A DNA stretch of 24,000 bases from Spirochaetia bacterium (GTDB lineage Bacteria; Spirochaetota; Spirochaetia; CAKZLE01). Below are positions 1,139 to 15,069 of the stretch, piece by piece. The notes beneath the pieces are model-generated. The model was not told where the DNA came from and did no database searches. It saw only the letters and a list, made by a program, of their open reading frames with translations. Numbering within the stretch: the first letter of the stretch is position 1; each line of letters starts with the position of its first letter. The position numbers were made by a program, and so were the translations under genes. The DNA lies in the NCBI GenBank assembly GCA_963677595.1, contig OY782041.1, positions 1,960,951 to 1,984,950 on the forward strand, in the 5' to 3' direction.

Positions 1139-2278
1139 ATGACGACTGAGAAGAGAGCAGGGAAAGAGTGTTTTATCCTGAAGAACGGGAATACCGAGGC
1201 TGCACTGACGAGACTCGGCGGCCATATGGCGCCGGTGCGGTTCTACACCGATACCGAGACACCGGTCGAGCCCTATTACGTAAGCCCCTGGCAGGAGGAG
1301 GATATCGCGATCGATGTCCCGATCCTCGAGCCGCTGCGCGGGGACTTCTTCTGCATGCCCTTCGGCGCGAACGAGGAGGATACCAACCCCTTCGTCGGAC
1401 ACGGGGATCCCTCCACGCGGGACTGGGAGTACGTATCGGAGAAGCACAGTGATCCCGTCACTACCCTGACACTTGGTATGGAGTTGAAGCAGTCAGCCGG
1501 GTCGGTCACGAAGGAGGTCTCGATCATCGAGGGAGAGCAGGTCATCTACACCCGTGACACGATCAGCGGGGTGTCAGGGCCCATGCCCCTCGGTCACCAT
1601 GCCACCCTCGGGACCCATAACGGGGAGCTGACGATCAGGACCTCCCCGATATCGTTCGGCCGCTGCAACCCCTATGACGTCCTCCATACCCAGGGACGGG
1701 AGTACTACTCCTGCGCCTCCTTGGGCCGGTTCACCGAGCTCGAGGATGTCCCCACCATCTGGAAGGTGCCGGAGAGCACGGACTGCACCGTCTTCCCCGC
1801 CAGGGAGGGCTATGTCGACATCATCCAGTCATTCCAGCAGGACCAGGGGAAACCTGCCTGGACTACCGCCGTCTGCAGGGAGGCCGGCTACCTCTGGTTC
1901 TCCCTGAAGGATGTGTCGGTGCTCCCCTCTGTGCTCTTCTGGATGGAGAACCATGGCCGTCATGGTTCCCCGTGGAACGGGAGGAACTGCTGCATCGGGC
2001 TTGAGGATGTCTGCTCATACTTCGCCAACGGCTATGAGGACTCCATCGGGGAGAACCCCCTCGTCACCGAGGAGGGCGCGAAGACTGCCGTGCAGCTCGA
2101 TGGCTCACCCTTTACCGTCAGCTATATCCAGGGGGTCGTCAGGATACCGGAGGGGTTCAACGCCGTCTCCGATATCGACTTCTCGGAAGATTGGATCACC
2201 TTCATCGAGGAGTCGGGCAGCTCCGTGGTCACCGTCCCCTGCCGCTGGGATTTCGTCTTCGGGAAGAGTCTGGACTGA
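1139..2278 (+). CDS. Hypothetical soluble protein, 379 aa; no confident family (weak resemblance to galactose-mutarotase-like beta-sandwich proteins only)
   Basis: Track ORF 1085..2278 starts at a GTG. The ATG at 1139 is preceded by GGGAGG (1128-1133). Codon usage matches neighbouring genes, and no TM segments are apparent. His/Gly-containing stretches (FVGHGDP, PLGHHATLG, NHGRHGSPWNG) are not diagnostic. Confidence 0.6.
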   Translation: MTTEKRAGKECFILKNGNTEAALTRLGGHMAPVRFYTDTETPVEPYYVSPWQEEDIAIDVPILEPLRGDFFCMPFGANEEDTNPFVGHGDPSTRDWEYVSEKHSDPVTTLTLGMELKQSAGSVTKEVSIIEGEQVIYTRDTISGVSGPMPLGHHATLGTHNGELTIRTSPISFGRCNPYDVLHTQGREYYSCASLGRFTELEDVPTIWKVPESTDCTVFPAREGYVDIIQSFQQDQGKPAWTTAVCREAGYLWFSLKDVSVLPSVLFWMENHGRHGSPWNGRNCCIGLEDVCSYFANGYEDSIGENPLVTEEGAKTAVQLDGSPFTVSYIQGVVRIPEGFNAVSDIDFSEDWITFIEESGSSVVTVPCRWDFVFGKSLD

Positions 2279-2325
2279 CAGGACAGCCGCCAGGAAAGAA
2301 TAAATAAAAATCGATAAAAAAATAT

Positions 2326-2372
2326 TTGACAACTCTTCGTTTAACACTTTATAATCTATTGAAGTGTTGAAC
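2326..2372 (+). promoter_or_regulatory. Promoter of the Mrp/complex-I-like operon: TTGACA-N18-TATAAT (also readable as archaeal TATA box TTTATAAT) bracketed by inverted repeats
   Basis: The intergenic region 2290-2420 is very AT-rich. It contains TTGACA at 2326-2331 and TATAAT at 2350-2355 (TTTATAAT 2348-2355). The inverted repeat AACACTT (2343-2349) / AAGTGTT (2362-2368) flanks the TATA element. Palindromic GTTTAAC (2339-2345) and GTTGAAC (2366-2372) are also present. Confidence 0.5.
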
Positions 2373-2422
2373 TGTATTATACATGAGAAATCTGTATGCA
2401 GATACATACGAAGGGGAAATGG

Positions 2423-2920
2423 ATGAAATCAATACTGTACCGCCTGAGCATCTGGATACTCCTGATGGTGATCTGGCTTCTGCTGGTCTCACCGCTGAAT
2501 ACCCAGGAGATCATCTCAGGAGCAATGATCGCCCTCCTGGCAGCCCTGATACCGCTGCCGGACAGGGACGTGTTCAGGGAACTGCTGCTGACACCGAAGA
2601 AGGCTGTCTACGCCCTCCTGTTCACCCTGGTGTTCCTCTGGGAGGTCGTGAAGTCGAACCTTGACGTCGCCCTCAGGGTCATCAAGCCGGTGATCCCGAT
2701 CAATCCCGGGATCGTGAAGGTGAGGACCTCGCTCTCATCGAGGATGGGACGTCTTGCCCTGGCGAACGCCATCACCTTGACACCCGGTACGATCACCGTC
2801 GATATCGAGGGTGAGTACCTCTATATCCACTGGATCTCCGTGGAGGCTGGGGATATAGACGAGGCGACGAAGAAGATCGTCTCTACATTCGAGAGATATC
2901 TGGAGGTGATCTTTGGCTGA
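2423..2920 (+). CDS. MrpE/MnhE-like (MbxA/MbhA-like) membrane subunit
   Basis: MnhE hallmarks are NLDVALRVIKP...INPGIVKV...ANAITLTPGTITVDI, with N-terminal TM helices. The ATG at 2423 is preceded by AAGGGGA (2411-2417). An alternative upstream ATG lies at 2396 (track ORF start). Confidence 0.85.
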   Translation: MKSILYRLSIWILLMVIWLLLVSPLNTQEIISGAMIALLAALIPLPDRDVFRELLLTPKKAVYALLFTLVFLWEVVKSNLDVALRVIKPVIPINPGIVKVRTSLSSRMGRLALANAITLTPGTITVDIEGEYLYIHWISVEAGDIDEATKKIVSTFERYLEVIFG

Positions 2921-3173
2921 TACTATCTATATGGCAGCAGGGGCGATCGCCCTGCTTGCGTTCTGCATATCGTTCTTCCGGATCATTGTCGGACCCGACC
3001 TGGCAGACCGAGTGGTCGCGCTCGACGCGATGACCATCCTGTCGCTCTCGGGGATCGTCTTCCTCACCCACCTGCTCGGGCGCATGATCTATATCGACAT
3101 AGCCCTGGTGTACGGCCTCATGAGTTTCCTCGGGGTCATCGCGGTGGCACGCTACATGGAAAGGGGGCTGTAA
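2913..3173 (+). CDS. MrpF/MnhF-like (MbxB-like) membrane subunit
   Basis: The GPDLADRVVALDAM motif and three TM helices. The TTG start at 2913 lies just downstream of GGAGGTGA (2902-2909) and overlaps the upstream stop. An alternative ATG lies at 2931. Confidence 0.8.
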   Translation: MADTIYMAAGAIALLAFCISFFRIIVGPDLADRVVALDAMTILSLSGIVFLTHLLGRMIYIDIALVYGLMSFLGVIAVARYMERGL

Positions 3174-3174
3174 G

Positions 3175-3516
3175 ATGGTACTTGAGATCATTGGGGCGAT
3201 CGTCGCCCTCTTCGGGTCCCTCTTCCTGCTGCTGGCAGCAGTCGGTATCGTCAGGATGCCCGATACCTATAACAGGATGCAGGCCGGGACCAAGGCTTCC
3301 ACCCTTGGGAGCCTGCTCTTCTTCATCGGGATCGGCCTCGGCCATCCCGGTCTCTGGGGCAAGCTCATCGTACTGAGCGCGTTCGTCCTCCTGACGAACC
3401 CGCTCTCCTCGCACGTCCTCGCACGGGCCCTGCACTATGTCGGGAAGTCCCCGATCCTGCCCGGCCATCCCAACCGTGACGACCTCGCAGAGGATCGCCT
3501 GAAGGAGGGAGTATGA
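3175..3516 (+). CDS. MrpG/MnhG-like (MbxC-like) membrane subunit
   Basis: RMPDTYNRMQAGTKASTLG matches the MnhG signature R.PD.Y.R.HA..K..TLG. The ATG lies 1 nt after the upstream stop, with AAGGGGG upstream. Confidence 0.85.
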   Translation: MVLEIIGAIVALFGSLFLLLAAVGIVRMPDTYNRMQAGTKASTLGSLLFFIGIGLGHPGLWGKLIVLSAFVLLTNPLSSHVLARALHYVGKSPILPGHPNRDDLAEDRLKEGV

Positions 3517-3779
3517 TCGTTCTCTATATCATATTGGGGGTGCTGATGCTCATCGCCGCAGCTGCCGCCATCCAGATGAAACATATGACCTCAGCGATCA
3601 TCGCTGCCGGGGTCGTCTCCCTGGTGGGAAGCCTGCTCTTCCTGCTCGCGGGTGCACCTGATGTCGCCATGACAGAGGCCGCAATCGGTTCCGCACTGAC
3701 GACAGTCATCTTCCTCTTCGCCTGGTCACGTATTTCCGACCATGCCAAGGGTGATGACGATGAGGAGGGTAGGTCATGA
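3513..3779 (+). CDS. DUF4040 / MrpA-C-terminal-like small membrane subunit (MbxD/MbhD-like)
   Basis: GAPDVAMTEAAIGSALTTVIFL matches the APDVALTEAAVG signature. There are three TM helices and an ATGA start/stop overlap at 3513-3516. Confidence 0.8.
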   Translation: MIVLYIILGVLMLIAAAAAIQMKHMTSAIIAAGVVSLVGSLLFLLAGAPDVAMTEAAIGSALTTVIFLFAWSRISDHAKGDDDEEGRS

Positions 3780-4474
3780 TCAAACGACTGCTTATCATCG
3801 CCGTGCTCATCGTATTGGGGATCGTGCTCTCCCCGATGCTCTGGAATATAACGGATGCGACTGAACTCGGTTCGGTATCGCAGAAGTATGTAACTGATGG
3901 GGTGGAAGACCTCGGGGCTGCGAACCTCGTCACCTCCGTCGTGGTCAGCTACCGTGGTCTCGATACGCTCGGCGAGGTCGCCGTGCTCTTCGTCGCGACT
4001 GCCGGGGTTGCCATGCTGCTTGGTGCAGGGAAGAAGGAGGAGTCTATCGTCCTCCCCAATGAGCGGCGCAGCGGATCGGAGCTCCTGGGCACCGGTTCAG
4101 CGCTGCTCTTCCCGATCCTCCTGCTCTTCGGGGTCTATATCTTCCTCCATGGTCACCTGACCCCTGGCGGAGGATTCCAGGGAGGCGTCGTCATCGCCTC
4201 CTCCATCGTGCTGCTGCTCTTCGAGAAGAGCGACAGGAAACTGAACCATGCCCTCCTGCAGTGGATCGAGGCCCTCTCCGGGGCTGCCTATGCAGCGGTC
4301 GGCCTGCTCGGGCTCTGGCTCGCGGCAGGGTTCCTGGATCCCAGGTTCCTCCCTACAGGGGAGTTCGGCATGGTGCTGAGCGCCGGGGCGATCCCCGTGA
4401 TCTACTGCCTGATCGGGATCAAGGTCGGCTCGGAGCTGACCGGGGTCGTCGATTCCCTGAGGAGGAACGCATGA
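3776..4474 (+). CDS. MnhB/MrpB-domain membrane subunit (MbxF / MbhE-F-like)
   Basis: GAANLVTSVVVSYRGLDTLGEVAVLF matches the MnhB signature N.VT.IL.D.RG.DTLGE. It is polytopic, with an ATGA overlap at 3776-3779. Confidence 0.85.
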   Translation: MIKRLLIIAVLIVLGIVLSPMLWNITDATELGSVSQKYVTDGVEDLGAANLVTSVVVSYRGLDTLGEVAVLFVATAGVAMLLGAGKKEESIVLPNERRSGSELLGTGSALLFPILLLFGVYIFLHGHLTPGGGFQGGVVIASSIVLLLFEKSDRKLNHALLQWIEALSGAAYAAVGLLGLWLAAGFLDPRFLPTGEFGMVLSAGAIPVIYCLIGIKVGSELTGVVDSLRRNA

Positions 4475-4830
4475 TTACACAGATCCTCGTGATCCTCGGA
4501 GGCCTACTGATCTTAGTCGGGCTCTGGGGCATCCTAACTAGAAAACACCTGGTGAAGATGATCATCGGGTTCTCCGTCCTCGATACCGGTGTCCACCTGA
4601 TCATGGTAGGACTCGGGTACATCAAGGGTGGGACCGCACCGATCATTGACAGCGAGCTCCCGGCGGGAACGCTCGCCGGGAAGGTCGTGGACCCGGTCCC
4701 CTCAGCCCTGGTCCTGACAGCGATCGTCATCGGCGTGGCTGTCACCGCCCTGATGCTCAGCTATGCTGTCCGGTTATACAAGACCTATAAGACTACGTCG
4801 ATCGATGAGATAAAGGAGTTGAAATGGTAA
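4471..4830 (+). CDS. MrpC/MnhC / NuoK-like membrane subunit (MbxG-like)
   Basis: DPVPSALVLTAIVIGVAVTA matches the MnhC hallmark DPLPQALVLTAIVI. The real start is the ATG at 4471 (aa 71 of track ORF 4261..4830), preceded by GAGGAGGAA, with an ATGA overlap with the upstream gene. Confidence 0.85.
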   Translation: MITQILVILGGLLILVGLWGILTRKHLVKMIIGFSVLDTGVHLIMVGLGYIKGGTAPIIDSELPAGTLAGKVVDPVPSALVLTAIVIGVAVTALMLSYAVRLYKTYKTTSIDEIKELKW

Positions 4831-7800
4831 GCCCACTCTATATATTCGGTCTGGGACTGGGGATCGCCTTCCTGCTCCCGCTGTTCGAGAAGCTCTCGAA
4901 AGAGGCCCCGAAGTACATCACCCTGCTGCTTCTTGCCCTGTTCACGATCATCCCGGTCTCATGGATCGCCCAGATCCTTCCCTCCGGGATCATGAGCTCC
5001 CCGGTATCGGTCGGGACGATCGGCTTCGCGCCCCCGTTTGCCATAAGTCTGCAGATAGGCTTTGCAGAAGCCGTCACCCTGGCGGCAGTCAATGCCGCGG
5101 CGCTGCTGAGCGGCCTCTACCATACGGTCAGGAATGACGAGAACTGGAAGGGGAAGCACATCGTGCTCTTCCTCACCCTCATCGTCGGCGTGAACGGGCT
5201 CATCCTCACCAGGGACCTCTTCAACCTCTTCGTCTTCCTCGAGATCACCTCGATCTCGATGTATGCACTCATCGCGACGAATGCCCAGAAGCATGCCTAT
5301 GAGGCAGGGTTCAAGTACCTGATCGCAGGTTCACTCGCCTCCGCGAGCTACCTCATCGGGGTGATCTTCCTCTACCGGTATACCGGCACCCTCTATATCG
5401 ATGAGATCGCGGCCATGGATATCGCTTCCATGGCGGCAGGGAACCCGGGTCTCGTCATCGCCCTCTCGTTGCTGATGCTCGCGATGCTCGTGGAGCTCAA
5501 ACCGTTCCCCGCGAACGGCTGGGCGATTGATGCCTATGAGGCTTCCGACCCTGCCGTATCGGCCATGATCAGTGCCGTCGGTGCCACCGGCGTGCTCTTC
5601 TCCTTCCATAAGCTCCTTGAACTGTTCACCCCACAGATGGCCGGCGTCGCTGCCGCCTGCGGGATGCTCACCTTCATCTTCTCTCAGCTCATCGGCTTGA
5701 GGCAGGAACGGGTCAGGAGGATGCTCGGCTATTCATCAGTCGGGCAGATCGCCCTGGCAGTGACCGTCCTCTCGATCGGCAGGGTCCATCCGGATCTTGC
5801 TGTCCAGATGCAGCTTGCGGCTGCACTCCTGATCGGGACCCATATATTCAGCAAGGCCGGGCTCTTCTGGCTTGCCGATATCCAGGACCGGGACGGGTTC
5901 ACCTCCTTCAGGAAGAGCCCGCTCTTCATCGCTGTCATCGGTATCCTGGTTTCAGCGTTGGCAGGACTGCCTCCCTTCCCCTCTTTCTGGGCGAAGTGGA
6001 GCCTCCTCTCGGCACTTACCGGTAAGGGATACCTCTTCTATATGACACTCATCCTCCTAGGGTCTGTCTGTGAGGCAGGCTACCTCTTCAGGTGGTTCAC
6101 CCGCGGCCTGAAGGCTGCTGCCGACCCAGGCGATATCCACGCAGAACAGGTCCCGGAGGATGTCCCTGTCGCAGGACCCCAGACCGGGGTGATCAGCTCG
6201 ACGAGGGCCAGGGCCGCAGTCGGGGAGACTGCAGCCAGGAACGTGAAGACTGCAGTCCAGGAAGCAGAGGATGAGAAGAAAACACTTCACCCCTCTGTGC
6301 TCATGCCGCTGGTCTCCGCGCTGGTCGTCACTGCCGGCGGGCTGCTCTTCGGCTATAGGGCCCTTGAAGGTTCGGCCGAGGTCCTCCTGCTGCTGCCGGC
6401 AGCCGTGCTGCTGGTCGGCCTGCTGCTTGACCTGGTACGTATCCCGCTCAAGCTCCACCTCCTCGCTGTCCTGGCAGGGATCGCATACTATGCATACCAG
6501 GTCCTGCCGCAGCTGCAGGGGCTCAGGATGGTCTTCGGGGTCATCTTCCTCATCGGTTCTGCCGTACAGATGATCATCCTCTTCAACCGGAAAGGCGTCC
6601 AGTTTGGTCTGGTACCACTCATGACCGCCATGGTCTTCTCCCTCGGGAACCTCCTGCTCGCCTCGACGAGGTTGGGATTCTTCCTCTCCTGGGAACTCAT
6701 GACTGTGACCTCCTTCCTGCTGATCCTCCGTGGGAAATTATCATCAGGGGCCGGTTTCCGGTACCTGCTCTTCTCACTCGGGGGTGCCTACAGCATCCTG
6801 GCAGGGCTCATGCTCTTCCCGGGATTCGACTCGCTCCTGGGCGGGGGCGGCGTAAGCGGTGCAGTACCGCTGGCCGCAGTCATCCTGCTGGCCGTCGGGT
6901 TCCTCGTGAAGATGGGGGCTGCCGGGTTCCATATTTGGCTGCCTTCAGCCTATGCAGAGGCTGAGGATGAGACCTCGGCACTGCTCTCCTCGGTATTGAG
7001 CAAGGCATCGTTGTTCATGCTCTTCCTGACTGCCGCACTCTACCTGCAGCCGGTCTCACCGGTATCGTCAGTGCCGGTATCGACCCTGCTCGGCTGGGTC
7101 GGGACCATCACCCTGATCGCAGGTTCGTTCTTCGCCCTCTTCCAGGAGGATATAAAGTACACGCTTGCCTACTCCTCCATGGGACAGGTCGGCTACATGC
7201 TCCTAGGCTTCTCCCTCATGACTCACCTGGGCTGGACGGCGAGCCTCTACCTGGCAGTGACTCACCTCCTCTTCAAGGGGATGCTCTTCATCGCGGTCGC
7301 CGGGGTCATCCACCGGACACGTACCCGGATGATGTACCAGATGGGAGGGCTGATCAAGCGGATGCCGGTCAGCTTCCTCACCGTACTCATCGGGATCATC
7401 GCCCTCTCGGGCGTTCCCCCGCTTACCGGGTTCGGCGGAAAATGGCTGATCTATACGGCCCTGATCGAGAAGGGCTGGTACCTGCAGGCGGCGGTCGCGA
7501 TGTTCGCCTCCGGGATCGCCTTCCTCTACCTCTTCAGGCTCATACATGTCATCTTCCTCGGGCAGCTCAAGGACGAGCACCGGGAGGTGAAAGAGGCGCC
7601 GATCTGGTACCTCATACCGCAGGTCATCGGCATGGTCGCCATCATGGCGTTCTCCATGTTCCCGAACCTGCTGCTGCAGCCGCTGCAGGCTGCCGTGGCC
7701 CCGTTCTTCCCGGCATCGATCAGCTGGGACGGCTACACGGTCATTTCGACGCTGGGCTACTGGAACGGGAATGCCGTCATGTACGTGACCTTCGGGGTGT

Positions 7801-8126
7801 TCCTCATCCCGCTCGCATGGCTGCTGCTGGTACGCAGGAAGCATACCCGGCTGGTGAGCCAATTCAATATCGTGTATGCGGCAGAGCGGCCTGACAAGCC
7901 GGAGACGACCCATTTCGGGTACAACTTCTTCGCCCATTACCATGAGGCGCTCGGAAGCTTCCTCACCCCCTGGGCCACACGGTTCTGGGGCGGGGTGGAA
8001 TCGATCGTCCATGTCGCCGGTTCGGCCGTGCGGAGGATCTACTCCGGCAACGGGCAGACCTATGCCTTCTATATCCTGGCCTACTGTACAGTAGTCCTGA
8101 TCATCATTCGAGGAGGGGTACTGTAG
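4824..8126 (+). CDS. Fused double antiporter-like subunit (MrpD/NuoN-like module + linker + MrpA/NuoL-like module; MbxH-MbxH' fusion), 1100 aa
   Basis: Module 1 (aa 1-~428) has FVFLEITSISMYALI (TM5 Glu), LVELKPFPANGWAIDAYEASDPAVSA (TM7 Lys), LGYSSVGQIA and HIFSKAGLFW. A hydrophilic linker spans aa ~429-489 (nt ~6108-6290). Module 2 (aa ~490-1100) has FLSWELMTVTSFLLI, FLVKMGAAGFHIWLPSAYAEAEDETSALLSS, LAYSSMGQVGYM and HLLFKGMLFIAVAG. Confidence 0.85.
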   Translation: MVSPLYIFGLGLGIAFLLPLFEKLSKEAPKYITLLLLALFTIIPVSWIAQILPSGIMSSPVSVGTIGFAPPFAISLQIGFAEAVTLAAVNAAALLSGLYHTVRNDENWKGKHIVLFLTLIVGVNGLILTRDLFNLFVFLEITSISMYALIATNAQKHAYEAGFKYLIAGSLASASYLIGVIFLYRYTGTLYIDEIAAMDIASMAAGNPGLVIALSLLMLAMLVELKPFPANGWAIDAYEASDPAVSAMISAVGATGVLFSFHKLLELFTPQMAGVAAACGMLTFIFSQLIGLRQERVRRMLGYSSVGQIALAVTVLSIGRVHPDLAVQMQLAAALLIGTHIFSKAGLFWLADIQDRDGFTSFRKSPLFIAVIGILVSALAGLPPFPSFWAKWSLLSALTGKGYLFYMTLILLGSVCEAGYLFRWFTRGLKAAADPGDIHAEQVPEDVPVAGPQTGVISSTRARAAVGETAARNVKTAVQEAEDEKKTLHPSVLMPLVSALVVTAGGLLFGYRALEGSAEVLLLLPAAVLLVGLLLDLVRIPLKLHLLAVLAGIAYYAYQVLPQLQGLRMVFGVIFLIGSAVQMIILFNRKGVQFGLVPLMTAMVFSLGNLLLASTRLGFFLSWELMTVTSFLLILRGKLSSGAGFRYLLFSLGGAYSILAGLMLFPGFDSLLGGGGVSGAVPLAAVILLAVGFLVKMGAAGFHIWLPSAYAEAEDETSALLSSVLSKASLFMLFLTAALYLQPVSPVSSVPVSTLLGWVGTITLIAGSFFALFQEDIKYTLAYSSMGQVGYMLLGFSLMTHLGWTASLYLAVTHLLFKGMLFIAVAGVIHRTRTRMMYQMGGLIKRMPVSFLTVLIGIIALSGVPPLTGFGGKWLIYTALIEKGWYLQAAVAMFASGIAFLYLFRLIHVIFLGQLKDEHREVKEAPIWYLIPQVIGMVAIMAFSMFPNLLLQPLQAAVAPFFPASISWDGYTVISTLGYWNGNAVMYVTFGVFLIPLAWLLLVRRKHTRLVSQFNIVYAAERPDKPETTHFGYNFFAHYHEALGSFLTPWATRFWGGVESIVHVAGSAVRRIYSGNGQTYAFYILAYCTVVLIIIRGGVL

Positions 8127-9038
8127 ATGAGAGAGATAGCGATCAAGGCAGGGTATACCCTGATCTCCCTGTTCGTCATCACCAATTACGGCCTGCTCCT
8201 CATGGGGACGATGGCCAGGGTGCGCGCGAAGGTACAGGGTCGTATAGGACAGCCGGTGTGGCAGCCCTATATCGACATCATCAAGAACAATACGCGGAGG
8301 ACTGCGGTCTTCCACGGGGTCATGTTCTACCTCGGGCCGGTCTTCAGGCTGGCAGGGGGACTCGGGACCTACCTGTTCATCCCGGCAGTCTACGGCTCGC
8401 TGGTCTTCGCGAACTTCTCGTTCTCCGGGGACCTCCTGCTCGTCATGTACTTCATCTTCTTCGGGCAGCTGGGAATGGCCTTGGGTGCCGGGCAGAGCGG
8501 GCACCCCTACAGCCCGATCGGGGTAGCGAGAGGCCTGGCCCAGATGACAGCCTTCGAGGTACCGTTCGCGCTGGCGGTCATATCGATCGCGGCACAGTAC
8601 CAGACGCTCTCCATCACCGAGATCGTCGCCGTACAGCAGGGAGGCATCCTCAACTGGATAGCCTTCACCAACCCGCTGGCAATGGTGGCAGGGATGATCT
8701 CCTTCCTCGGGATGACGATGGGGAATCCGTTCAGTGTCGTCATCGCACCACAGGAGATACCGATCGGGCCGCCTACCGAGATGAACGCCGGCTTCCTCGG
8801 GATGCTTCAGACGAACCGTGCGATCTTCCAGGGCGCCAAGCTGGTGCTCTTCATGAACCTCTTCTTCGGAGGGGCGACGAACATACCGGTGATGGTCGTG
8901 AAGACCTTCCTGATCTACTTCTATACCGTGTTCGTCGGGGCTTCCTTCCCGAGGTTCAGGGTCGACCAGTCGATCAAGTTCTTCTTAGGGATACCGACAC
9001 TGATCGGTATCGCGGCAGTCGTGCTGCAGATGATCTAG
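8127..9038 (+). CDS. NuoH/ND1-like membrane subunit (MbxM/MbhM, HycD, CooK family)
   Basis: RVRAKVQGRIGQPVWQPYIDIIK matches the ER+..+Q.R.GP...QP.AD..K signature. About 8 TM helices. The ATG abuts the upstream TAG, with GGAGGGG at 8112-8118. Confidence 0.85.
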   Translation: MREIAIKAGYTLISLFVITNYGLLLMGTMARVRAKVQGRIGQPVWQPYIDIIKNNTRRTAVFHGVMFYLGPVFRLAGGLGTYLFIPAVYGSLVFANFSFSGDLLLVMYFIFFGQLGMALGAGQSGHPYSPIGVARGLAQMTAFEVPFALAVISIAAQYQTLSITEIVAVQQGGILNWIAFTNPLAMVAGMISFLGMTMGNPFSVVIAPQEIPIGPPTEMNAGFLGMLQTNRAIFQGAKLVLFMNLFFGGATNIPVMVVKTFLIYFYTVFVGASFPRFRVDQSIKFFLGIPTLIGIAAVVLQMI

Positions 9039-9052
9039 TCAGAGGGGTTAAG

Positions 9053-9709
9053 ATGAAAGATACAGATGATAAACAGGACCAGCTCGAGGAGATTGCCAAG
9101 GAGCTGAGACTGGCAAACAGCGGGCTCCCGGAGGATGAGAGAGCGTACTTCTGCGATGCGAGGCCCGAGAAGATCGATCCCTACCGGGGGATCCTCGAGA
9201 AGTTCGCCAACTGGGCGAGATCGGAATCATTGTGGATCCTCGGGTTCGGCACCGGTTGCGGGGCCATCGAGCTCAGGCCGCTGATGACCGCCCGCTATGA
9301 CATGTACCGATACGGGATCCAGCCGAGGCCGACACCGCGCCAGGCCGGGGTCTTCGTGATCGGCGGCTATGCCTCGGTGAAGACGATGAAGCGGATCGTG
9401 CGCAGCTATGAGCAGATGCAGGGACCGAAGTTCGTCCTTGGGCTCGGCAGCTGCACGATCAACGGCGGTATGTACTGGGACAGTTACAACACCGTCAACC
9501 GGCTCGACCACTATATCCCGGTGGATGTCTATATCGCCGGATGCATGCCGAGGCCTGAGGCCCTGCTCGCAGGTTTCCTCAAGCTCAAGAAGATGATCAA
9601 GTCCGGGCAGTGCGACGGCATGAACACGTATGCCGAGAATTTCGACTGGTACAAGCAGAACCAGAAACAGATCATCAAGCATTGGGAAATGCCTGATTAC
9701 AACTGGTAG
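9053..9709 (+). CDS. NuoB / hydrogenase-small-subunit-like Fe-S subunit (MbxJ-like) with only 3 of the 4 canonical cluster cysteines evident
   Basis: The real start is the ATG at 9053 (in frame with track ORF 8258..9709), preceded by GAGGGG (9042-9047). SLWILGFGTGCGAIE aligns to NuoB SLW...GLACCAIE. Also GLGSCTINGGMY (cf. GACA..GG) and VDVYIAGCMPRPEALL (cf. PGCPPRPEAL). Confidence 0.85.
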   Translation: MKDTDDKQDQLEEIAKELRLANSGLPEDERAYFCDARPEKIDPYRGILEKFANWARSESLWILGFGTGCGAIELRPLMTARYDMYRYGIQPRPTPRQAGVFVIGGYASVKTMKRIVRSYEQMQGPKFVLGLGSCTINGGMYWDSYNTVNRLDHYIPVDVYIAGCMPRPEALLAGFLKLKKMIKSGQCDGMNTYAENFDWYKQNQKQIIKHWEMPDYNW

Positions 9710-9722
9710 GAGGAGTGTGAGT

Positions 9723-10271
9723 ATGAGAGAACGATTGAGGGAAGTCTCAGGAAGATTTCCCGTGACCATACGCGAAGAACTCGCTCCTGACCGGGATGAC
9801 CTGCTCTTCGTCGAGACCGGGACCGAATATGCGGTCTCCTTCATCACCTGGCTGCAGGAACTCGAGGGGTATACCCACCTCGTCTTCTTCACGGCAGTCG
9901 ATTACATCGAGGAGGGGTACTTCCAGCTGACCTACATGCTGCAGAACTACGGGAAGAAGCATGACCTCTGCGTCCTCGTCCGCCTCGAGCGGGAGAAACC
10001 CGTCATGGAGTCGATCCACCACCTCTGGCCCCATGCTGCGACTTACCAGCAGGAGCTCTATGAGATGTACGGGATCGAGTTCCCCGGTTCACCGAGGATG
10101 TATGAGGACTTCGTCCTCGAGGGCTGGGACGACCTTCCCCCGATGCGACGGGATTTCGACACGAAAGCCTATTCAGAGGAGACCTATTTCCCGAGACCGG
10201 GAAGGAAGACACACGATACTGCTGCCTACATGAAGGAGCAGCTCTATCCCGGGGAGGCCGAGACATGGTAG
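9723..10271 (+). CDS. NuoC / 30-kDa-subunit-like protein (MbxK-like)
   Basis: The ATG at 9723 (aa 32 of track ORF 9630..10271) is preceded by GGAGGAG (9709-9715). HLVFFTAVDY...FQLTYMLQN...SIHHLWPHAATYQQELYEMYGIEFPGSP matches the NuoC pattern (.vD...f.vvY.L...S....A.W.ERE.YDM.GI.F.GHP). Confidence 0.8.
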   Translation: MRERLREVSGRFPVTIREELAPDRDDLLFVETGTEYAVSFITWLQELEGYTHLVFFTAVDYIEEGYFQLTYMLQNYGKKHDLCVLVRLEREKPVMESIHHLWPHAATYQQELYEMYGIEFPGSPRMYEDFVLEGWDDLPPMRRDFDTKAYSEETYFPRPGRKTHDTAAYMKEQLYPGEAETW

Positions 10272-11440
10272 GAGCCAAGCAGAAAGAGAGCGGGAAGTTC
10301 CCGCCTGTCGTTGACGGAAAGAGTCAGTATGACCTCTATTCAGGGAAGTACCTCAAGGTATGGCAGGGCCCGCAGCACCCCGGGATCACGGGGAACATGT
10401 CCCTCGAGCTCGTGACCTGCGGTGACCGTATCGTCGAGGCGAGGACCCATGTCGGGTACCTCCACCGGGGATTCGAGAAGCTCATGGAGCGACGGAAGTA
10501 TATCCAGTGCTTCCCCCTGGTCTGCAGGATCTGCGTGCCGGAGCCCGACTTCAACGAGTACCTCTTCGCAGAGTGTACCGAGGAGCTCGCGGGCATAGAG
10601 GTGCCCGAACGGGCGAAGTGGCTGCGTGCCATGAACCTCGAGATGGCACGGCTCACCTCGTTCCTCATGTGGCTCGGCGGACAGGCCGGGGCCTTCGGCA
10701 TGGGAACGCTCGGGCAGTGGACGGTGACGATGCGTGACTACATGCTCGACCTCTTCGAGGAGCTTACCGGTGGACGTATCTACCATATGTACATCATCCC
10801 CGGCGGGGTCCGCTCAGATGTGCCTGACGGCTATTTCGGCCGGGTCGAGGCTACCCTGCAGCAGATCGAGAAGGTCCTGAAGGACATCGAACTTGCGCTC
10901 TTCCATAACTCCGTCTTCAAGAAGCGGGCCAAAGGTCTCGGGTATATAGACCCGTCTATGGTGGAGCTCTACGGCATCACCGGCCCGAACGCCCGGGGCA
11001 GCGGTATCGCGAGGGATATCAGGAAGGATGTCGGCTACCTCGTCTATGACGAACTCGACTTCGAGCCGGTCACGGCGACTGACGGCGATGCCTATGCCAG
11101 GACCTGGGTCCGGTACCAGGAGATCCACCAGTCGATCGACCTGATCAGGCAGATGATGGCAAAGATGCCCGAAGGGCAGTTCTTCCAGAAGCTCCCCAAC
11201 GTCCTCCATTGGAAGATCCCGGCAGGCCAGACCTACCGTCGTGCGGAATGCACAAGAGGGGAGTACGGCTTCTACATGGTCTCCGACGGGTCGGAGTACC
11301 CGAGGAGGGTCGCCGTCAGGGGACCGAGCTACACCCATGCCGTCACGCTGATGGAACGGCTGGCAGTCGGGACGAACATCGCGGATACAGCAGGGTTGAT
11401 GGTATCGCTCCACACCTATCCGCCTGAGATAGAGAGGTAG
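10265..11440 (+). CDS. NuoD / group-4 hydrogenase large-subunit homologue lacking the [NiFe]-binding cysteine pairs (MbxL/Ehr-like)
   Basis: GPQHPGITGNM, GYLHRGFEKLMERRKY and IEVPERAKWLRAMNLEMARL are NuoD/large-subunit signatures. The L1 position reads VCRICVPEP (expected R.CG.C). The C-terminus reads SLHTYPPEIER (expected DPC..C..R/H). Confidence 0.85.
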   Translation: MVGAKQKESGKFPPVVDGKSQYDLYSGKYLKVWQGPQHPGITGNMSLELVTCGDRIVEARTHVGYLHRGFEKLMERRKYIQCFPLVCRICVPEPDFNEYLFAECTEELAGIEVPERAKWLRAMNLEMARLTSFLMWLGGQAGAFGMGTLGQWTVTMRDYMLDLFEELTGGRIYHMYIIPGGVRSDVPDGYFGRVEATLQQIEKVLKDIELALFHNSVFKKRAKGLGYIDPSMVELYGITGPNARGSGIARDIRKDVGYLVYDELDFEPVTATDGDAYARTWVRYQEIHQSIDLIRQMMAKMPEGQFFQKLPNVLHWKIPAGQTYRRAECTRGEYGFYMVSDGSEYPRRVAVRGPSYTHAVTLMERLAVGTNIADTAGLMVSLHTYPPEIER

Positions 11441-11443
11441 TAT

Positions 11444-13228
11444 ATGAGTCTGAAAGATATAGTTGCACCGTTCTCCGTCTGGAAGCGGGTACTGGAAAAA
11501 CCATACACAACGAAGAAGCCGATCGATGAGCGGCCGGGGGCAGCCCGGTACCGCGGGTTCCATATAAACGACGTGGACAAGTGCATCGGCTGCGGGACCT
11601 GTGAGGAGATCTGCCAGAATGCGGCGATCGACCTGGTCCCCGTATCGAAGACCAAGCACGGGGACTCCGGCCTGCGGCCGAAGATCGACTACGGCAGGTG
11701 CTGCTGGTGCGCGCTCTGCGTCGATATCTGCCCCACGGGATCGCTCGGGATGAGCAATGAGTACATCTGGGTCGAGAACGACCCGGAGGCCTACCGGTTC
11801 ATCCCCGGGCACGACGAGAAGAGCTGGAACGGCAGCGAACTCGGTTACCGCCGCGCTGAAGGCTATGACCTGCTCGAGGGCGAGCGGGTCGCCATGCCGA
11901 TGCTCCCCTTCGAGGAGAGCCAGAAGAGCTTCATCGAGATGGTCCTCGGATACTCGAAGGAACAGGCTCAGCGTGAGGCTGACCGGTGTATCGCCTGCGG
12001 CATCTGCGTCGCCACCTGCCCGGCTCACATGAACGTGCCTGACTACATCAAGGCCATACGTGACGATGACATGGAAGAGGGACTGCGGATCGTTTACCAG
12101 GCGAACCCGCTGCCTGCCTCCTGCGGGCGTGTCTGCTCCCATGCATGTGAGTATGTCTGTGCCGTGAAGCATAAGGGTGAGGCGCTCTCCATCCGCTGGC
12201 TCAAGCGGTACATCATCGACCAGATCTACAAGGACGACTATACGAAGATCCTTGACGAGATGCCGGAGGAGAACGGCAGGAAGGTCGCGATCATCGGATC
12301 GGGACCGGGGGGCTTGAGTGCCGCCTACTACCTGAGGCTCCTCGGGTACAGTGTGACGGTCTACGACGCGAACGAGAAAGCCGGTGGTATGCTTCGCTAC
12401 GGAATACCCGAGTACCGGCTTCCCTACGACCAGGTCGACAAGGATATCGTGTATCTCACGACGCTGGGCGTGAAGATCGAGCAGAATGTACGTATCGGGG
12501 TGGACAAACCCATGAAGGAGATCTATGAGCAGAACGACGCGGTCTTCTTCTCCACAGGATTGACTGACCCCTACGGTCTCGGTATTGCCGGTGAGGACCT
12601 CAAGGGTGTCCTCTCCGGTCTGGGCATGCTCGATGACGTGACGAACGGCAAGACCCCGGACATCGGGGGATCGGTGGTGGTCATCGGCGGTGGTAACGTC
12701 GCCATGGATGCTGCCAGGACGAGCCGGCGGTACAAGGCTGACGTGACCATCCTCTACCGGAGGCGCGAGGTCGATATGCCGGCCGATGTCGAGGAGATCG
12801 AGGAGTCCCAGGGAGAGGGCTGTACCCTGATCACCCAGGCGATCCCGCTGAGGATCGAGAAGGGGGACAAGACGAGGTTGAAGCTCTATTGGGGCAAGGC
12901 AGAGATGGTAGCCGACAGCAAGGGTGGCAGGCCGAGGCCGGTGCTCATCGAGGGTTCGGAAGAGCTCATCGAATGTGACACCATCATACCCGCGATCGGG
13001 CAGGCGGCAGACTACTCGTTCCTCCCTGATGATATTGCCAAGTCGGTCACCTTCACCCGGGGCTATGTCGATGTCAACGAGTTCTACCAGACGGGTGACA
13101 AGAAGATATTCGCCGGAGGTGATATCGCAAACCCGAAGCGGGATGCCATCAGCGCCATCGCCAACGGCCACTCCGCAGCGAAGGGGATCGATATCTACCT
13201 GAACGATTTCGCTGAAGGGGAAGAATAG
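11444..13228 (+). CDS. Fusion protein: NuoI/MbxN-like 2x[4Fe-4S] ferredoxin domain + GltD/NfnB/SudA-like Fe-S, FAD, NAD(P)H oxidoreductase domain (594 aa)
   Basis: The N-terminus has KPYTTKKP...RYRGFH, C47-x2-C-x2-C-x3-C57 and C86-x2-C-x2-C-x3-C96-P. The C-terminal module has C182-x2-C-x2-C-x3-C192-P, C227-x3-C231-x3-C235-x3-C239 within NPLPASCGRVCSHACEYVC, VAIIGSGPGGLSAAYYL, GGMLRYGIPEYRLP, VVVIGGGNVAMDAARTSRR, ILYRRR and IFAGGD. Confidence 0.85.
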   Translation: MSLKDIVAPFSVWKRVLEKPYTTKKPIDERPGAARYRGFHINDVDKCIGCGTCEEICQNAAIDLVPVSKTKHGDSGLRPKIDYGRCCWCALCVDICPTGSLGMSNEYIWVENDPEAYRFIPGHDEKSWNGSELGYRRAEGYDLLEGERVAMPMLPFEESQKSFIEMVLGYSKEQAQREADRCIACGICVATCPAHMNVPDYIKAIRDDDMEEGLRIVYQANPLPASCGRVCSHACEYVCAVKHKGEALSIRWLKRYIIDQIYKDDYTKILDEMPEENGRKVAIIGSGPGGLSAAYYLRLLGYSVTVYDANEKAGGMLRYGIPEYRLPYDQVDKDIVYLTTLGVKIEQNVRIGVDKPMKEIYEQNDAVFFSTGLTDPYGLGIAGEDLKGVLSGLGMLDDVTNGKTPDIGGSVVVIGGGNVAMDAARTSRRYKADVTILYRRREVDMPADVEEIEESQGEGCTLITQAIPLRIEKGDKTRLKLYWGKAEMVADSKGGRPRPVLIEGSEELIECDTIIPAIGQAADYSFLPDDIAKSVTFTRGYVDVNEFYQTGDKKIFAGGDIANPKRDAISAIANGHSAAKGIDIYLNDFAEGEE

Positions 13229-13232
13229 TACC

Positions 13233-13249
13233 AGAACCGGTTCTATAAT
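13233..13249. promoter_or_regulatory. Perfect 12-bp palindrome AGAACCGGTTCT abutting a TATAAT/TATA-like element upstream of the ArsR-family gene (candidate operator + promoter)
   Basis: AGAACC|GGTTCT spans 13233-13244 and TATAAT spans 13244-13249. This lies 50 nt upstream of the ATG at 13299, with GGTGGTGA (13283-13290) as RBS. Confidence 0.4.
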
Positions 13250-13298
13250 GCGGCATATGCTGATATACTTCCCCGGAACAAGGTGGTGAGAGAAGAAG

Positions 13299-13646
13299 AT
13301 GGATTTGTTTGAGATGCACTGTGAGGAGACTATACTGGAGTTGCGGGAACGGTTCTCAAGTTCCCGGTGTGAGCTGGTGGAGCGCATGATGTCGATCATG
13401 TCCAACCCCATCCGGTTTCACATCCTCTGTGCGCTCAACCATGAACCGTTCACCGTTTCCGAGCTGGTGGACCTCACCGACTCGCAGCCTTCGAACGTAT
13501 CACAGCAGCTGAAGATGATGACCCTCGCCGGGTACCTGGACAAGGAACGGCGGGGGAAACAGATCTACTACCGGCTCATCGAGGATAAGGTGTCACGCAT
13601 CATCAGCCTGCTCGAGGAGCTCTTCCCCTTTGACCAGCCAGAATAG
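13299..13646 (+). CDS. ArsR/SmtB-family winged-HTH transcriptional regulator
   Basis: PIRFHILCALNHEPFTVSELVDLTDSQPSNVSQQLKMMTLAGYLDKERRGKQIYYRL is the canonical ArsR HTH-wing core. There is a ~35-aa N-terminal extension. Cysteines are at aa 8, 24 and 44, with no CxxC or CVC metal motif. Confidence 0.85.
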   Translation: MDLFEMHCEETILELRERFSSSRCELVERMMSIMSNPIRFHILCALNHEPFTVSELVDLTDSQPSNVSQQLKMMTLAGYLDKERRGKQIYYRLIEDKVSRIISLLEELFPFDQPE

Positions 13647-13747
13647 CGGCTTCGCTTACCTGAAACCTCACGAACAGACGCCTCACAAAAACAGCATACG
13701 ACAGGAATACCATTGCGGAGTGGGGATTCCTGGGGTATAGTAGTAGT

Positions 13748-14673: not shown

Positions 14674-14683
14674 GCAGTTGTCT

Positions 14684-15067: not shown

Positions 15068-15069
15068 CT

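What the first reader, a model, noticed from the sequence alone, without database searches (positions are those of the whole stretch)
2423..13228. Mbx/MBS-type (not Mbh-type) Mrp/complex-I-like operon whose catalytic subunit has lost the [NiFe] ligands: an ion-translocating complex with no assigned substrate
Seen in the sequence: 12 co-directional genes have start/stop overlaps or gaps of 14 nt or less (ATGA overlaps at 3513, 3776 and 4471; 8126/8127 abut). This is one translationally coupled unit: MrpE-F-G, DUF4040, MnhB, MrpC/NuoK, two antiporter-like modules, then NuoH-, NuoB-, NuoC-, NuoD- and NuoI-like genes.

The NuoH-like gene sits before B-C-D-I, and there are two antiporter-like modules. 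As I recall, this mirrors the Pyrococcus mbxABCDFGHH'MJKLN order rather than mbhA-N, where M follows L.

In the large-subunit homologue the hydrogenase L1 motif R-x-C-G-x-C reads C87-R-I-C90-V-P-E93 (nt 10523-10543), so the second Cys position is Glu. The C-terminal D-P-C-x-x-C-x-x-R/H reads S-L-H-T-Y-P-P-E-I-E-R (nt 11405-11437), with no Cys. Canonical NiFe binding is therefore impossible.

Inference: this is a member of the Mbx/MBS or Ehr (energy-converting hydrogenase-related) class of respiratory complexes, and its terminal substrate cannot be deduced from sequence.
Basis: partly seen in the sequence, partly recalled or inferred. Interest (0 to 1): 0.8.

Follow-up and report, generated by a model that had tools for sequence, protein, structure and literature searches.

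The report
Bacterial Mbx/MBS respiratory complex with NAD(P)H module

Summary
Twelve co-directional, translationally coupled genes (2423-13228) encode MrpE/F/G, MbhD, MbsE, a NuoK-like subunit, one fused 1100-aa double antiporter-like protein, and NuoH-, B-, C-, D- and I-like proteins. The large subunit cannot bind NiFe: it reads C90-V-P-E93 and H383-T-Y385. All eight subunits tested have the Pyrococcus MBS structure (6U8Y) as their best solved relative. The NuoB-like subunit keeps exactly the three cysteines that hold the open-coordination proximal cluster in MBS.

The "NuoI-like" gene encodes 594 aa: an MbsN-like 2x[4Fe-4S] domain fused to an NfnB/GltD-like FAD, NAD(P)H and 2x[4Fe-4S] module. 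One substrate, NAD(P)(H), can therefore be read from the sequence.

The same operon occurs in at least 595 species-level genomes across many bacterial phyla. The gltD-type replacement of NuoI in bacterial mbx-like operons was already described in 2015.

My preferred mechanism is NAD(P)H to FAD, through five [4Fe-4S] clusters, to a cluster-bound sulfane-sulfur-type acceptor, coupled to H+/Na+ export. The rival is a ferredoxin:NADP+ oxidoreductase. Neither has been tested.

Verdict: a new member of a known kind, of moderate interest.

The parts
2326..2355 (+). Promoter-like site, TTGACA-18-TATAAT, about 40 nt upstream of the alternative ATG at 2396 and about 68 nt upstream of the preferred start at 2423
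   Evidence: 12 of 12 consensus matches. It is the only perfect match in 1900-14000, although the total number of promoter-like hits is no more than shuffles give. Sequence read.
2339..2372 (.). Inverted repeat (AACACTT...AAGTGTT core) overlapping the -10 box; a candidate operator, function not tested
2423..2920 (+). MrpE/MbsA-like subunit (an alternative in-frame ATG lies at 2396)
   Evidence: Pfam MNHE, 1.3e-37. A GAAGGGG ribosome-binding site lies 6 nt before 2423.
2913..3173 (+). MrpF/MbsB-like subunit (TTG start, 8-nt overlap)
   Evidence: Pfam MrpF_PhaF, 6e-16; junction.
3175..3516 (+). MrpG/MbsC-like subunit
   Evidence: Pfam PhaG_MnhG_YufB, 3e-23.
3513..3779 (+). MbhD/MbsD-like subunit
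   Evidence: Pfam MbhD, 5.6e-19.
3776..4474 (+). MbsE-like subunit (MbhE + MnhB domains)
   Evidence: Pfam. Best PDB hit is 6u8y_E at 3e-49, covering the full length.
4471..4830 (+). MrpC/NuoK/MbsG-like subunit
   Evidence: Pfam Oxidored_q2, 6e-27.
4824..8126 (+). Fused MbsH (aa ~1-430) and MbsH' (aa ~500-1100) antiporter-like modules, joined by a ~70-aa hydrophilic linker
   Evidence: PDB 6u8y_H at 1e-58 and 6u8y_X at 7e-56. Pump residues checked. The fusion is present in 8 of the 9 related loci inspected.
8127..9038 (+). NuoH/MbsM-like membrane anchor of the peripheral arm
   Evidence: Pfam NADHdh, 1e-43. PDB 6u8y_M at 4e-41, against MbhM at 1e-13.
9053..9709 (+). NuoB/MbsJ-like subunit with a three-cysteine proximal [4Fe-4S] motif (GTGCG ... 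GSC ... GCMPRPE)
   Evidence: PDB 6u8y_J at 2.6e-67. C69, C134 and C164 are invariant in the MbsJ sequence and 9 bacterial sequences aligned, and no fourth Cys is present.
9723..10271 (+). NuoC/MbsK-like subunit
   Evidence: Pfam Complex1_30kDa, 3e-24. Best PDB hit is 6u8y_K.
10265..11440 (+). NuoD/MbsL-like large subunit without NiFe ligands (C90 kept; E93, H383 and Y385 in place of the other positions)
   Evidence: PDB 6u8y_L at 3e-98, against the best NuoD at 2.5e-60 and MbhL at 4e-43. Motif conservation.
11444..13228 (+). Fusion of an MbsN/NuoI-like 2x[4Fe-4S] domain (aa 8-126) with an NfnB/GltD-like 2x[4Fe-4S] + FAD + NAD(P)H domain (aa ~146-588)
   Evidence: Pfam Fer4_7, Fer4_20 and Pyr_redox_2. 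PDB 6u8y_N at 8.5e-24, NfnI-L 5jca_L at 4e-78, NfnB 4ylf_B at 3e-77 and GltD 6s6s_G at 6e-58. NCBIfam PRK13984 matches the full length.
13299..13646 (+). ArsR/SmtB-family regulator 70 nt downstream; a neighbour whose membership of the unit is not shown
   Evidence: Pfam HTH_5. NCBIfam HTH_metalloreg at 65 bits. BigR scores only 54.6 bits against a cut-off of 155. An ArsR-sized ORF is not evident at this position in the related loci whose ORF lists were examined.

Best explanation
The locus encodes a bacterial Mbx/MBS-type, Mrp-derived, complex-I-like membrane complex. Its electron-input end is a built-in NAD(P)H dehydrogenase. The proposed path is as follows. NAD(P)H reduces the FAD of the NfnB/GltD-like domain fused to the MbsN-like subunit. 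Electrons then pass through that domain's two [4Fe-4S] clusters, the two MbsN-type clusters, and the proximal [4Fe-4S] cluster of the MbsJ-like subunit. That proximal cluster has only three cysteine ligands, as in Pyrococcus MBS, and therefore has one open iron. At the pocket formed by the J, L and M subunits, the open iron reduces a cluster-bound acceptor. By homology this is most likely sulfane sulfur (polysulfide or persulfide). Turnover there drives H+ translocation in the two fused antiporter-like modules and Na+/H+ exchange in the Mrp module. The reaction may run in reverse in lithotrophs. What is shown: gene content, order and coupling; family assignment; loss of the NiFe and quinone ligands; the three-cysteine motif; and the cofactor-binding motifs of the fusion. 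What is inferred: the direction of electron flow, the identity of the acceptor, and the ions moved.
For: All eight subunits tested (E, H, H', M, J, K, L, N) have MBS 6U8Y chains as their best solved relatives. The gene order is that of the mbs operon. The J subunit aligns without gaps to MbsJ across the shortened cluster loop and keeps C28, C93 and C123. The non-ligating C25 is Gly. This single-Cys GTGCG motif is invariant in all 9 bacterial sequences aligned, from five phyla. The MBS paper shows that catalysis occurs at this three-cysteine cluster and that MbsL C85 and C385 and MbsJ C25 are dispensable (PMC7684303). The equivalents of the quinone ligands H38 and Y87 are T42 and V91. The fusion has 8 + 8 Cys for four clusters and both Rossmann motifs, and it matches NfnB, NfnI-L and GltD at 1e-58 to 1e-78. 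It is attached to the N subunit, which is the position where electron-input modules dock in related complexes (established knowledge of complex I and FHL). T. maritima mbxA is induced 4.4-fold by S0 (PMC9431562). Charged pump residues are conserved in both antiporter-like modules.
Against: No activity of any bacterial member has been measured. NAD(P)H (about -320 mV) to polysulfide (about -260 to -270 mV) offers little driving force for a three-pump machine (textbook potentials). No sulfur-metabolism gene lies in the window. The family occurs in aerobic Rhodobacterales, methanotrophs and iron oxidisers that are not known as sulfur reducers. This clade has replaced MbsL C385 by an invariant His-x-Tyr, which may signal different chemistry. 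Mesotoga mbx is weakly expressed on thiosulfate. The literature on bacterial Mbx mostly assumes ferredoxin:NAD(P)+ activity.
Confidence: 0.4

Rival explanations
1. The complex is an ion-translocating ferredoxin:NAD(P)+ oxidoreductase, a functional analogue of Rnf. In fermenters, reduced ferredoxin donates to the FeS chain and the fused flavoprotein reduces NAD(P)+ while ions are pumped. In aerobes and lithotrophs it runs backwards to make reduced ferredoxin.
For: This is the function proposed for bacterial mbx-like operons with the gltD-type subunit (PMC4758237) and for Mesotoga Mbx. The family's distribution favours a universal Fd/NADP(H) reaction. It includes fermenters together with S-oxidisers, Fe-oxidisers and methanotrophs, lineages in which N2 fixation is common (my own knowledge, not checked here), at 55-73% identity. 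A canonical nfnA-nfnB pair lies directly downstream in Salinispira L075. The driving force, about 150-200 mV, suits ion pumping.
Against: No known complex-I-like enzyme couples without substrate turnover at the pocket beside the proximal cluster. Electrons passing from Fd to FAD would bypass that site. The same idea for Pyrococcus Mbx was superseded when MBS was shown to reduce polysulfide directly. The strict conservation of the three-cysteine proximal motif would be left unexplained. T. maritima and Mesotoga already have Rnf.
Confidence: 0.3
2. The complex is an NAD(P)H-dependent reductase of a different, protonation-requiring acceptor, such as a quinone or another small molecule, in the His-x-Tyr clade. 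This would make it an independent complex-I-like solution with a GltD-type N-module.
For: H383 (120 of 120) and Y385 (118 of 120) are fixed at the former Ni-ligand position next to the proximal cluster in this clade. His and Tyr are the quinone ligands and proton donors in complex I, although at different positions in the sequence. The MBS chamber is as wide as the quinone chamber. Many carriers in this clade are quinone-containing Proteobacteria.
Against: The same clade includes Spirochaetota and Cloacimonadota fermenters, which usually lack quinones (general knowledge, not tested here). The canonical Q-site residues are absent. The sister clade, with the same operon and the same fusion, keeps Cys.
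Confidence: 0.12
3. The complex is a true energy-converting [NiFe]-hydrogenase (Mbh/Ech-type).
For: The subunit families are shared with group 4 hydrogenases.
Against: Only one of the four NiFe cysteines remains, and even that one is Ala in 17 of 120 close homologues. MbhL scores 151 bits against 332 bits for MbsL. The gene order is mbs-type, not mbh-type. No hyp maturation genes are in the window.
Confidence: 0.01
4. The locus is a canonical NADH:quinone oxidoreductase (complex I) or an Fpo operon fragment, as NCBI-style annotation ('NADH-quinone oxidoreductase subunit D') implies.
For: NCBIfam PRK06075 'NuoD' scores above its cut-off, 404.7 against 360. Source annotations of homologues say NuoD.
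Against: TIGR01962 NuoD and FpoD score far below their cut-offs. The tandem-Cys motif of NuoB is absent (GTGCG). The Q-site His and Tyr are absent. No NuoA, NuoJ, NuoE, NuoF or NuoG is present. Mrp E/F/G and MbhD/E subunits are present instead.
Confidence: 0.01

Closest known systems
Pyrococcus furiosus MBS (membrane-bound sulfane sulfur reductase, formerly Mbx; PDB 6U8Y)
   Same: The subunit set and order are the same: A-B-C-D-E-G-H-H'-M-J-K-L-N. It is the best solved relative of every subunit tested (L 3e-98, J 3e-67, E 3e-49, M 4e-41). The L subunit is the same length, 391 aa, and shares the RICVPEP motif. The shortened three-cysteine proximal-cluster loop in J is the same. The quinone His/Tyr and two to three of the NiFe cysteines are absent in both.
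   Different: H and H' are fused into one 1100-aa protein. MbsL C385 is Tyr, with His two residues before it. MbsJ C25 is Gly. MbsN is fused to an NfnB/GltD-like FAD/NAD(P)H/2x[4Fe-4S] domain, whereas MBS takes electrons from free ferredoxin. The host is a mesophilic bacterium, apparently a spirochaete.
Bacterial 'mbx-like' operons of Thermotoga, Mesotoga and Magnetococcus (Degli Esposti 2015, PMC4758237; T. maritima MBX, PMC9431562)
   Same: The literature describes the same idea: an Mrp + Nuo-like operon in which NuoI is replaced or extended by a gltD-related flavoprotein, often followed by rubrerythrin. This is the family to which the window belongs.
   Different: I could not fetch the Thermotoga operon to compare it residue by residue. 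The window lacks the trailing rubrerythrin gene found in 4 of the 9 related loci checked (L009, L043, L029, L076). Function is untested in any of these organisms.
NfnB / NfnI-L / SudA / GltD family of NAD(P)H-dependent iron-sulfur flavoproteins
   Same: The C-terminal 440 aa match at 1e-58 to 1e-78. They contain the Fer4_20 two-cluster region and both dinucleotide-binding motifs.
   Different: The domain is covalently attached to a NuoI/MbsN domain of a membrane complex. No NfnA (small subunit) or GltB partner is encoded in the window, so Nfn-type bifurcation or glutamate synthesis is unlikely.
Respiratory complex I and its N-module (NuoEFG)
   Same: The overall logic is the same: a soluble NAD(P)H-oxidising flavoprotein module feeds a chain of FeS clusters that ends at a NuoB-type cluster above a NuoD/NuoH pocket, and this is coupled to antiporter-like pumps.
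   Different: The flavoprotein is unrelated (GltD-type FAD rather than NuoF FMN). There are no quinone ligands. An Mrp Na+ module is present. The peripheral arm attaches as in MBS.

Membership tests
MBS/Mbx (Mrp-Mbx) complex | Gene set and order A-B-C-D-E-G-H-H'-M-J-K-L-N, with the NuoH-like M before J-K-L-N and two MrpD-like modules | tested here: met
   Pfam, junctions and PDB best hits. H and H' are fused into one ORF.
MBS/Mbx (Mrp-Mbx) complex | Subunits closer to MBS than to MBH, complex I or Mrp | tested here: met
   6U8Y chains are the top hits for E, H, H', M, J, K, L and N. A, B, C, D and G were not tested against the PDB.
MBS/Mbx (Mrp-Mbx) complex | Proximal [4Fe-4S] in the NuoB-like subunit held by three Cys on a shortened loop | tested here: met
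   Ungapped alignment to MbsJ. C28, C93 and C123 are conserved and C25 is Gly. The motif is invariant in the MbsJ sequence and 9 bacterial sequences aligned.
MBS/Mbx (Mrp-Mbx) complex | Large subunit retains two of the four NiFe cysteines (MbsL C85 and C385) | tested here: not met
   C90 corresponds to C85 and is present. The C385 equivalent is Y385. The MBS paper shows both are dispensable for catalysis.
MBS/Mbx (Mrp-Mbx) complex | Stand-alone MbsN that accepts electrons from ferredoxin | tested here: not met
   The MbsN-like domain is fused to an NfnB/GltD-like flavoprotein.
MBS/Mbx (Mrp-Mbx) complex | Ferredoxin-dependent polysulfide reduction coupled to Na+ export | not testable with these tools
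   Needs biochemistry.
Group 4 membrane-bound [NiFe]-hydrogenase (Mbh/Ech/Hyc) | L1 RxCGxC and L2 DPCxxC motifs, four Cys in all | tested here: not met
   The motifs read C90-V-P-E93 and H383-T-Y385-P-P-E388.
Complex I / NDH-1 / Fpo (NuoD-type) | Quinone-binding His38 and Tyr87 (Nqo4 numbering) and the tandem Cys-Cys in NuoB | tested here: not met
   The positions are T42 and V91, and the NuoB-like motif is GTGCG.
Complex I / NDH-1 / Fpo (NuoD-type) | Remaining nuo/fpo genes (A, J, E, F, G or FpoF/O) nearby | tested here: not met
   None in the 24-kb window.
Ehr (energy-converting hydrogenase-related complexes) | Group-4-like large subunit lacking NiFe ligands, together with antiporter-like subunits | tested here: met
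   Met by definition. Ehr is an umbrella term, and the specific subtype here is Mbx/MBS.
NfnB/GltD-type flavoprotein (C-terminal domain of the last gene) | Fer4_20 region with two 4-Cys clusters, plus FAD and NAD(P)H Rossmann motifs | tested here: met
   Pfam Fer4_20 at 3.6e-29 and Pyr_redox_2 at 1.5e-30. CxxCxxCxxxCP ... CxxxCxxxCxxxC, GSGPGG and GGGNVA were read from the translation.
NfnAB electron-bifurcating transhydrogenase | NfnA partner (FAD/[2Fe-2S], PyrK-like) encoded alongside | tested here: not met
   None in the window. A separate nfnA-nfnB pair follows the operon only in L075.

The most novel reading that the evidence does not exclude
The His-x-Tyr subclade, which includes this window and members from Spirochaetota, Cloacimonadota and many Proteobacteria, has lost the last catalytic-pocket cysteine. 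It has fixed a His/Tyr pair beside a three-cysteine, open-iron proximal cluster and carries its own GltD-type NAD(P)H module. It could therefore be an independently evolved 'complex I' that couples NAD(P)H oxidation to reduction of a protonation-requiring acceptor other than polysulfide (a quinone or another small molecule). Alternatively, in sulfur or iron lithotrophs, it could be a gradient-driven route from a weak donor to NADPH.
Probability: 0.15. Interest if true: 0.7.

Novelty: new member of a known kind. Interest (0 to 1): 0.35.

Why it matters
This locus adds little on its own. It is one more copy of an operon found in hundreds of bacterial species and already noted in comparative-genomic papers. 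The family does matter, though. It is an abundant, phylogenetically broad, complex-I-like ion pump whose reaction has never been measured. Its fused NAD(P)H module makes it directly testable in vitro, either as an NAD(P)H-driven MBS or as an Rnf-like Fd:NADP+ enzyme. Settling that question would fill a gap in the energy budgets drawn for fermenting spirochaetes, Cloacimonadota, Thermotogae and sulfur-oxidising symbionts. It would also show a second, independent way in which a hydrogenase-derived module acquired a pyridine-nucleotide input.

Tried and rejected
- **Phylogeny.** A proper tree of the large subunit could not be built. The script machine failed during the alignment of the representative set. 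I used score ranking against solved structures and motif columns in MAFFT alignments instead.
- **Source organism.** The source is known only as a 4.33-Mb contig whose closest relatives are Spirochaetota.
- **Literature.** Searches for 'membrane-bound oxidoreductase' returned only Qmo/CISM papers.
- **Persulfide-sensor idea.** I considered that the downstream ArsR might be a BigR/SqrR-type persulfide sensor, which would support a sulfur link. BigR scores 54.6 bits against a cut-off of 155 and no ArsR-sized ORF is evident at that position in the related loci whose ORF lists were examined, so this is not usable evidence.
- **Nfn-type bifurcation.** Considered for the fused domain and rejected for this window, because no NfnA partner is encoded.
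- **Hydrogenase and canonical complex I.** Both rejected on the defining motifs.
- **NADPH versus NADH.** The 'YRR' after the second Rossmann strand resembles NADPH-specific relatives, but I did not verify this.
- **Structure prediction.** Not run, because the tool returns no coordinates from which cluster-to-cluster distances could be measured.

Full report
**Observation.** The + strand between 2423 and 13228 carries twelve ORFs with no internal stops.
- Junctions read from the sequence give ATGA overlaps at 3513, 3776 and 4471.
- There are overlaps of 8, 7 and 7 nt at 2913, 4824 and 10265.
- A stop abuts a start at 8126/8127.
- The gaps are 1, 14, 13 and 3 nt.
- The NuoB-like gene starts at ATG 9053, 14 nt after the preceding stop.
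- Most starts follow a GGAGG-like ribosome-binding site.
- The quoted motifs and coordinates in the 391-aa protein are exact: C87-R-I-C90-V-P-E93 at 10523-10543 and S381-L-H-T-Y-P-P-E-I-E-R391 at 11405-11437.
- A perfect sigma-70-type promoter match (TTGACA-18-TATAAT, 2326-2355) lies in the AT-rich gap upstream.

**Two corrections.**
- The two antiporter-like modules are one 1100-aa ORF (4824-8126). Its N-terminal part matches MbsH (1e-58) and its C-terminal part matches MbsH' (7e-56) of the Pyrococcus MBS structure.
- More importantly, the last gene (11444-13228) encodes 594 aa. Residues 8-126 are MbsN/NuoI-like, with two CxxCxxCxxxC motifs (6u8y_N, 8.5e-24).
- Residues ~146-588 are a Fer4_20 + Pyr_redox_2 domain. 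It matches NfnI large subunit (5jca_L, 4e-78), T. maritima NfnB (4ylf_B, 3e-77) and GltD (6s6s_G, 6e-58).
- This domain has eight further cysteines for two [4Fe-4S] clusters, a GSGPGG FAD motif and a GGGNVA NAD(P)H motif.
- NCBIfam has a full-length model for this fused architecture, PRK13984 'putative oxidoreductase'.

**What it is.**
- Every subunit I compared with solved structures has an MBS (6U8Y) chain as its best hit:

| Subunit | E-value vs 6U8Y chain |
|---|---|
| L | 3e-98 |
| J | 2.6e-67 |
| E | 3e-49 |
| M | 4e-41 |
| K | 3e-11 |
| H | 1e-58 |
| H' | 7e-56 |
| N | 8.5e-24 |

- For L, the score is 332 bits, against 208 bits for the best NuoD and 151 bits for MbhL.
- The gene order, with M ahead of J-K-L-N and two MrpD-like modules, is that of mbs rather than mbh.
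- In L, C90 aligns with MbsL C85 and Y385 with MbsL C385. The second L1 cysteine position is E93, as in MbsL.
- The complex-I quinone ligands His38 and Tyr87 correspond to T42 and V91.
- In J, the sequence SLWILGFGTGCGAIELRPLM aligns without gaps to MbsJ SLWIVAFCTGCGGIEMPPLM. The three cluster-ligating cysteines of MbsJ are kept and the non-ligating C25 is Gly.
- The MBS structure paper shows that this shortened loop leaves the proximal cluster with three Cys and one open, catalytic iron. [quoted passage not shown]
- The window therefore encodes an Mbx/MBS-type complex. It is not a hydrogenase and not complex I.

**How common it is.**
- The fused N-flavoprotein subunit has at least 120 close homologues of ~590-600 aa with the same domain set. 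The L subunit likewise has at least 120 close homologues.
The best 80 are 55-73% identical. They come from Spirochaetota, Cloacimonadota, Gamma-, Alpha- and Betaproteobacteria (Sedimenticola, Thiodiazotropha, Gallionellaceae, Methylococcales, Aliiruegeria, Tropicimonas), Bacteroidales, Chlorobiota, Calditrichota, Aminicenantes, Acidobacteria, Fermentibacteria and Marinimicrobia.
- Nine loci inspected have the same layout and subunit sizes. The N-GltD-sized gene (589-642 aa) follows L in all nine, and its Fer4 + Fer4_20 + Pyr_redox_2 domain set was confirmed by Pfam in the four I scanned (L009, L043, L073, L076). H-H' is fused in eight of the nine; only L076 has H and H' as separate genes.
- The single-Cys GTGCG motif of J is invariant in all 9 bacterial sequences aligned, from five phyla.
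- The L C-terminus splits the family in two. An 'SLHTYPPEIER' clade contains the window, Spirochaetota, Cloacimonadota and Proteobacteria. In that clade H383 is present in 120 of 120 close homologues and Y385 in 118 of 120, while C90 is Ala in 17 of 120. An 'SLQTCPPEIER' clade (Bacteroidales, Chlorobiota and others) keeps the MbsL-type Cys.

**What is already known.**
- Degli Esposti (2015) states that in mbx-like operons of Thermotoga and proteobacteria the NuoI subunit is replaced by a gltD-related flavoprotein, proposed to reduce NAD(P)+. The paper adds that the operon often ends with rubrerythrin (PMC4758237). I confirmed rubrerythrin-domain genes downstream in L009, L043, L029 and L076. 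The window has an ArsR-family gene there instead.
- T. maritima mbxA is induced by S0, and its MBX is discussed as a sulfur reductase (PMC9431562).
- Mesotoga Mbx is treated as an NADP:ferredoxin oxidoreductase.
- No solved structure contains the fused subunit, and I found no biochemical study of any bacterial member.

**Mechanism.** The anatomy shows FAD plus five [4Fe-4S] clusters in a line, ending at an MBS-type open-iron cluster. It also shows two antiporter-like modules with conserved charged residues and a complete Mrp-type Na+ module.
- H' keeps the equivalents of MbsH' E128, K217, K248 and K399.
- H keeps E140, E224, K226, K344 and K391, but has Thr where MbsH has K250. An invariant Lys lies seven residues further along.

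In all complex-I-like enzymes studied, coupling requires substrate turnover at the pocket beside the proximal cluster, and input modules dock on the NuoI-like subunit. This is established knowledge of complex I, MBH, MBS and FHL.

I therefore favour NAD(P)H as donor and a cluster-bound sulfane-sulfur-type acceptor, with H+/Na+ export (confidence about 0.4). Several points count against it:
- The driving force from NAD(P)H to polysulfide is small.
- No sulfur genes are nearby.
- The family occurs in aerobes.
- The clade has a specific His-x-Tyr substitution.

The main rival is a reversible ferredoxin:NAD(P)+ oxidoreductase (about 0.3). It fits the taxonomic spread and the literature, but it leaves the conserved catalytic pocket and the coupling unexplained. 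A third reading is a different, protonation-requiring acceptor in the His-x-Tyr clade (about 0.12). Hydrogenase and canonical complex I are excluded by their defining motifs.

**Verdict.** Its claim that no substrate can be inferred is overstated, and its interest score is too high. The locus is an ordinary member of a known, widespread, but experimentally uncharacterised kind.

Noticed in passing
window 2326-2372: A perfect sigma-70 consensus promoter (TTGACA-18-TATAAT) lies upstream of the operon. Its -10 box sits inside a 13-pair inverted repeat (AACACTT...AAGTGTT), which is a possible operator. No regulator has been assigned.
   Followed up: partly
window 10265-11440 (residues 383-385) and loci L001-L080: The bacterial family splits into an 'HTY' clade (Spirochaetota, Cloacimonadota, Proteobacteria) and a 'QTC' clade (Bacteroidales, Chlorobiota, Calditrichota, Acidobacteria and others) at the former Ni-ligand position of the large subunit. 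His383 and Tyr385 are nearly invariant in the first clade. C87 is also nearly invariant there (119 of 120) but is Leu in MbsL.
   Followed up: partly
window 4824-6100 (H module, residue ~256-263): The TM8 lysine of MbsH (K250) is Thr in the window, and non-basic residues occupy the position in all six sequences aligned. An invariant Lys (K263) lies seven residues, about two helical turns, further along. The significance for proton transfer is unknown.
   Followed up: partly
L009 12961-13491, L043 12928-13422, L029 13037-13474, L076 12903-13361: A small rubrerythrin-domain gene follows the N-flavoprotein gene in four of the nine related loci checked, overlapping or abutting it in L009, L043 and L029 and 3 nt downstream in L076. 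The window lacks it.
   Followed up: partly
L075 13160-15652; L051 12963-13952: In Salinispira, a canonical nfnA-like (PyrK-type) plus nfnB-like gene pair sits directly after the operon. In a Bacteroidales genome, a dihydroorotate-dehydrogenase-like (FMN) gene follows instead. Both hint at variable partners for the NAD(P)H module.
   Followed up: no
L076 4363-7696: In a Neomarinimicrobiota genome, H (490 aa) and H' (619 aa) are separate genes as in Pyrococcus, while the N-GltD fusion is present. The two fusions therefore arose independently.
   Followed up: no
window 13299-13646: An ArsR/SmtB-family regulator lies 70 nt after the operon. It has weak, sub-threshold similarity to the sulfide/sulfite-sensing repressor BigR (54.6 bits, cut-off 155). 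A promoter-like site at 13309-13336 lies inside the annotated ORF, so the true start may be M30 or M31.
   Followed up: partly
window 13864-20045: A co-directional signalling cluster: PAS-STAS, STAS, an anti-sigma-type HATPase kinase, a SpoIIE/PP2C phosphatase (together a partner-switching module), then a 916-aa hybrid histidine kinase with receiver and Hpt domains, and a receiver-HD (HD_5) protein.
   Followed up: no
window 30-1013: A tryptophanase / beta-eliminating-lyase homologue matches only profile positions ~152-461 of 463. The N-terminal third is missing from this reading frame, so the gene is either truncated or frameshifted.
   Followed up: no
window 1085-2278: A 397-aa ORF directly upstream of the operon has no Pfam or NCBIfam match.
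   Followed up: no
window 10814-13411 (-) and 7203-8504 (-): Very long antisense ORFs (865 and 433 aa) lie opposite the L/N and H'/M genes. They are most likely shadow ORFs produced by the 60% G+C coding strand rather than genes.
   Followed up: no
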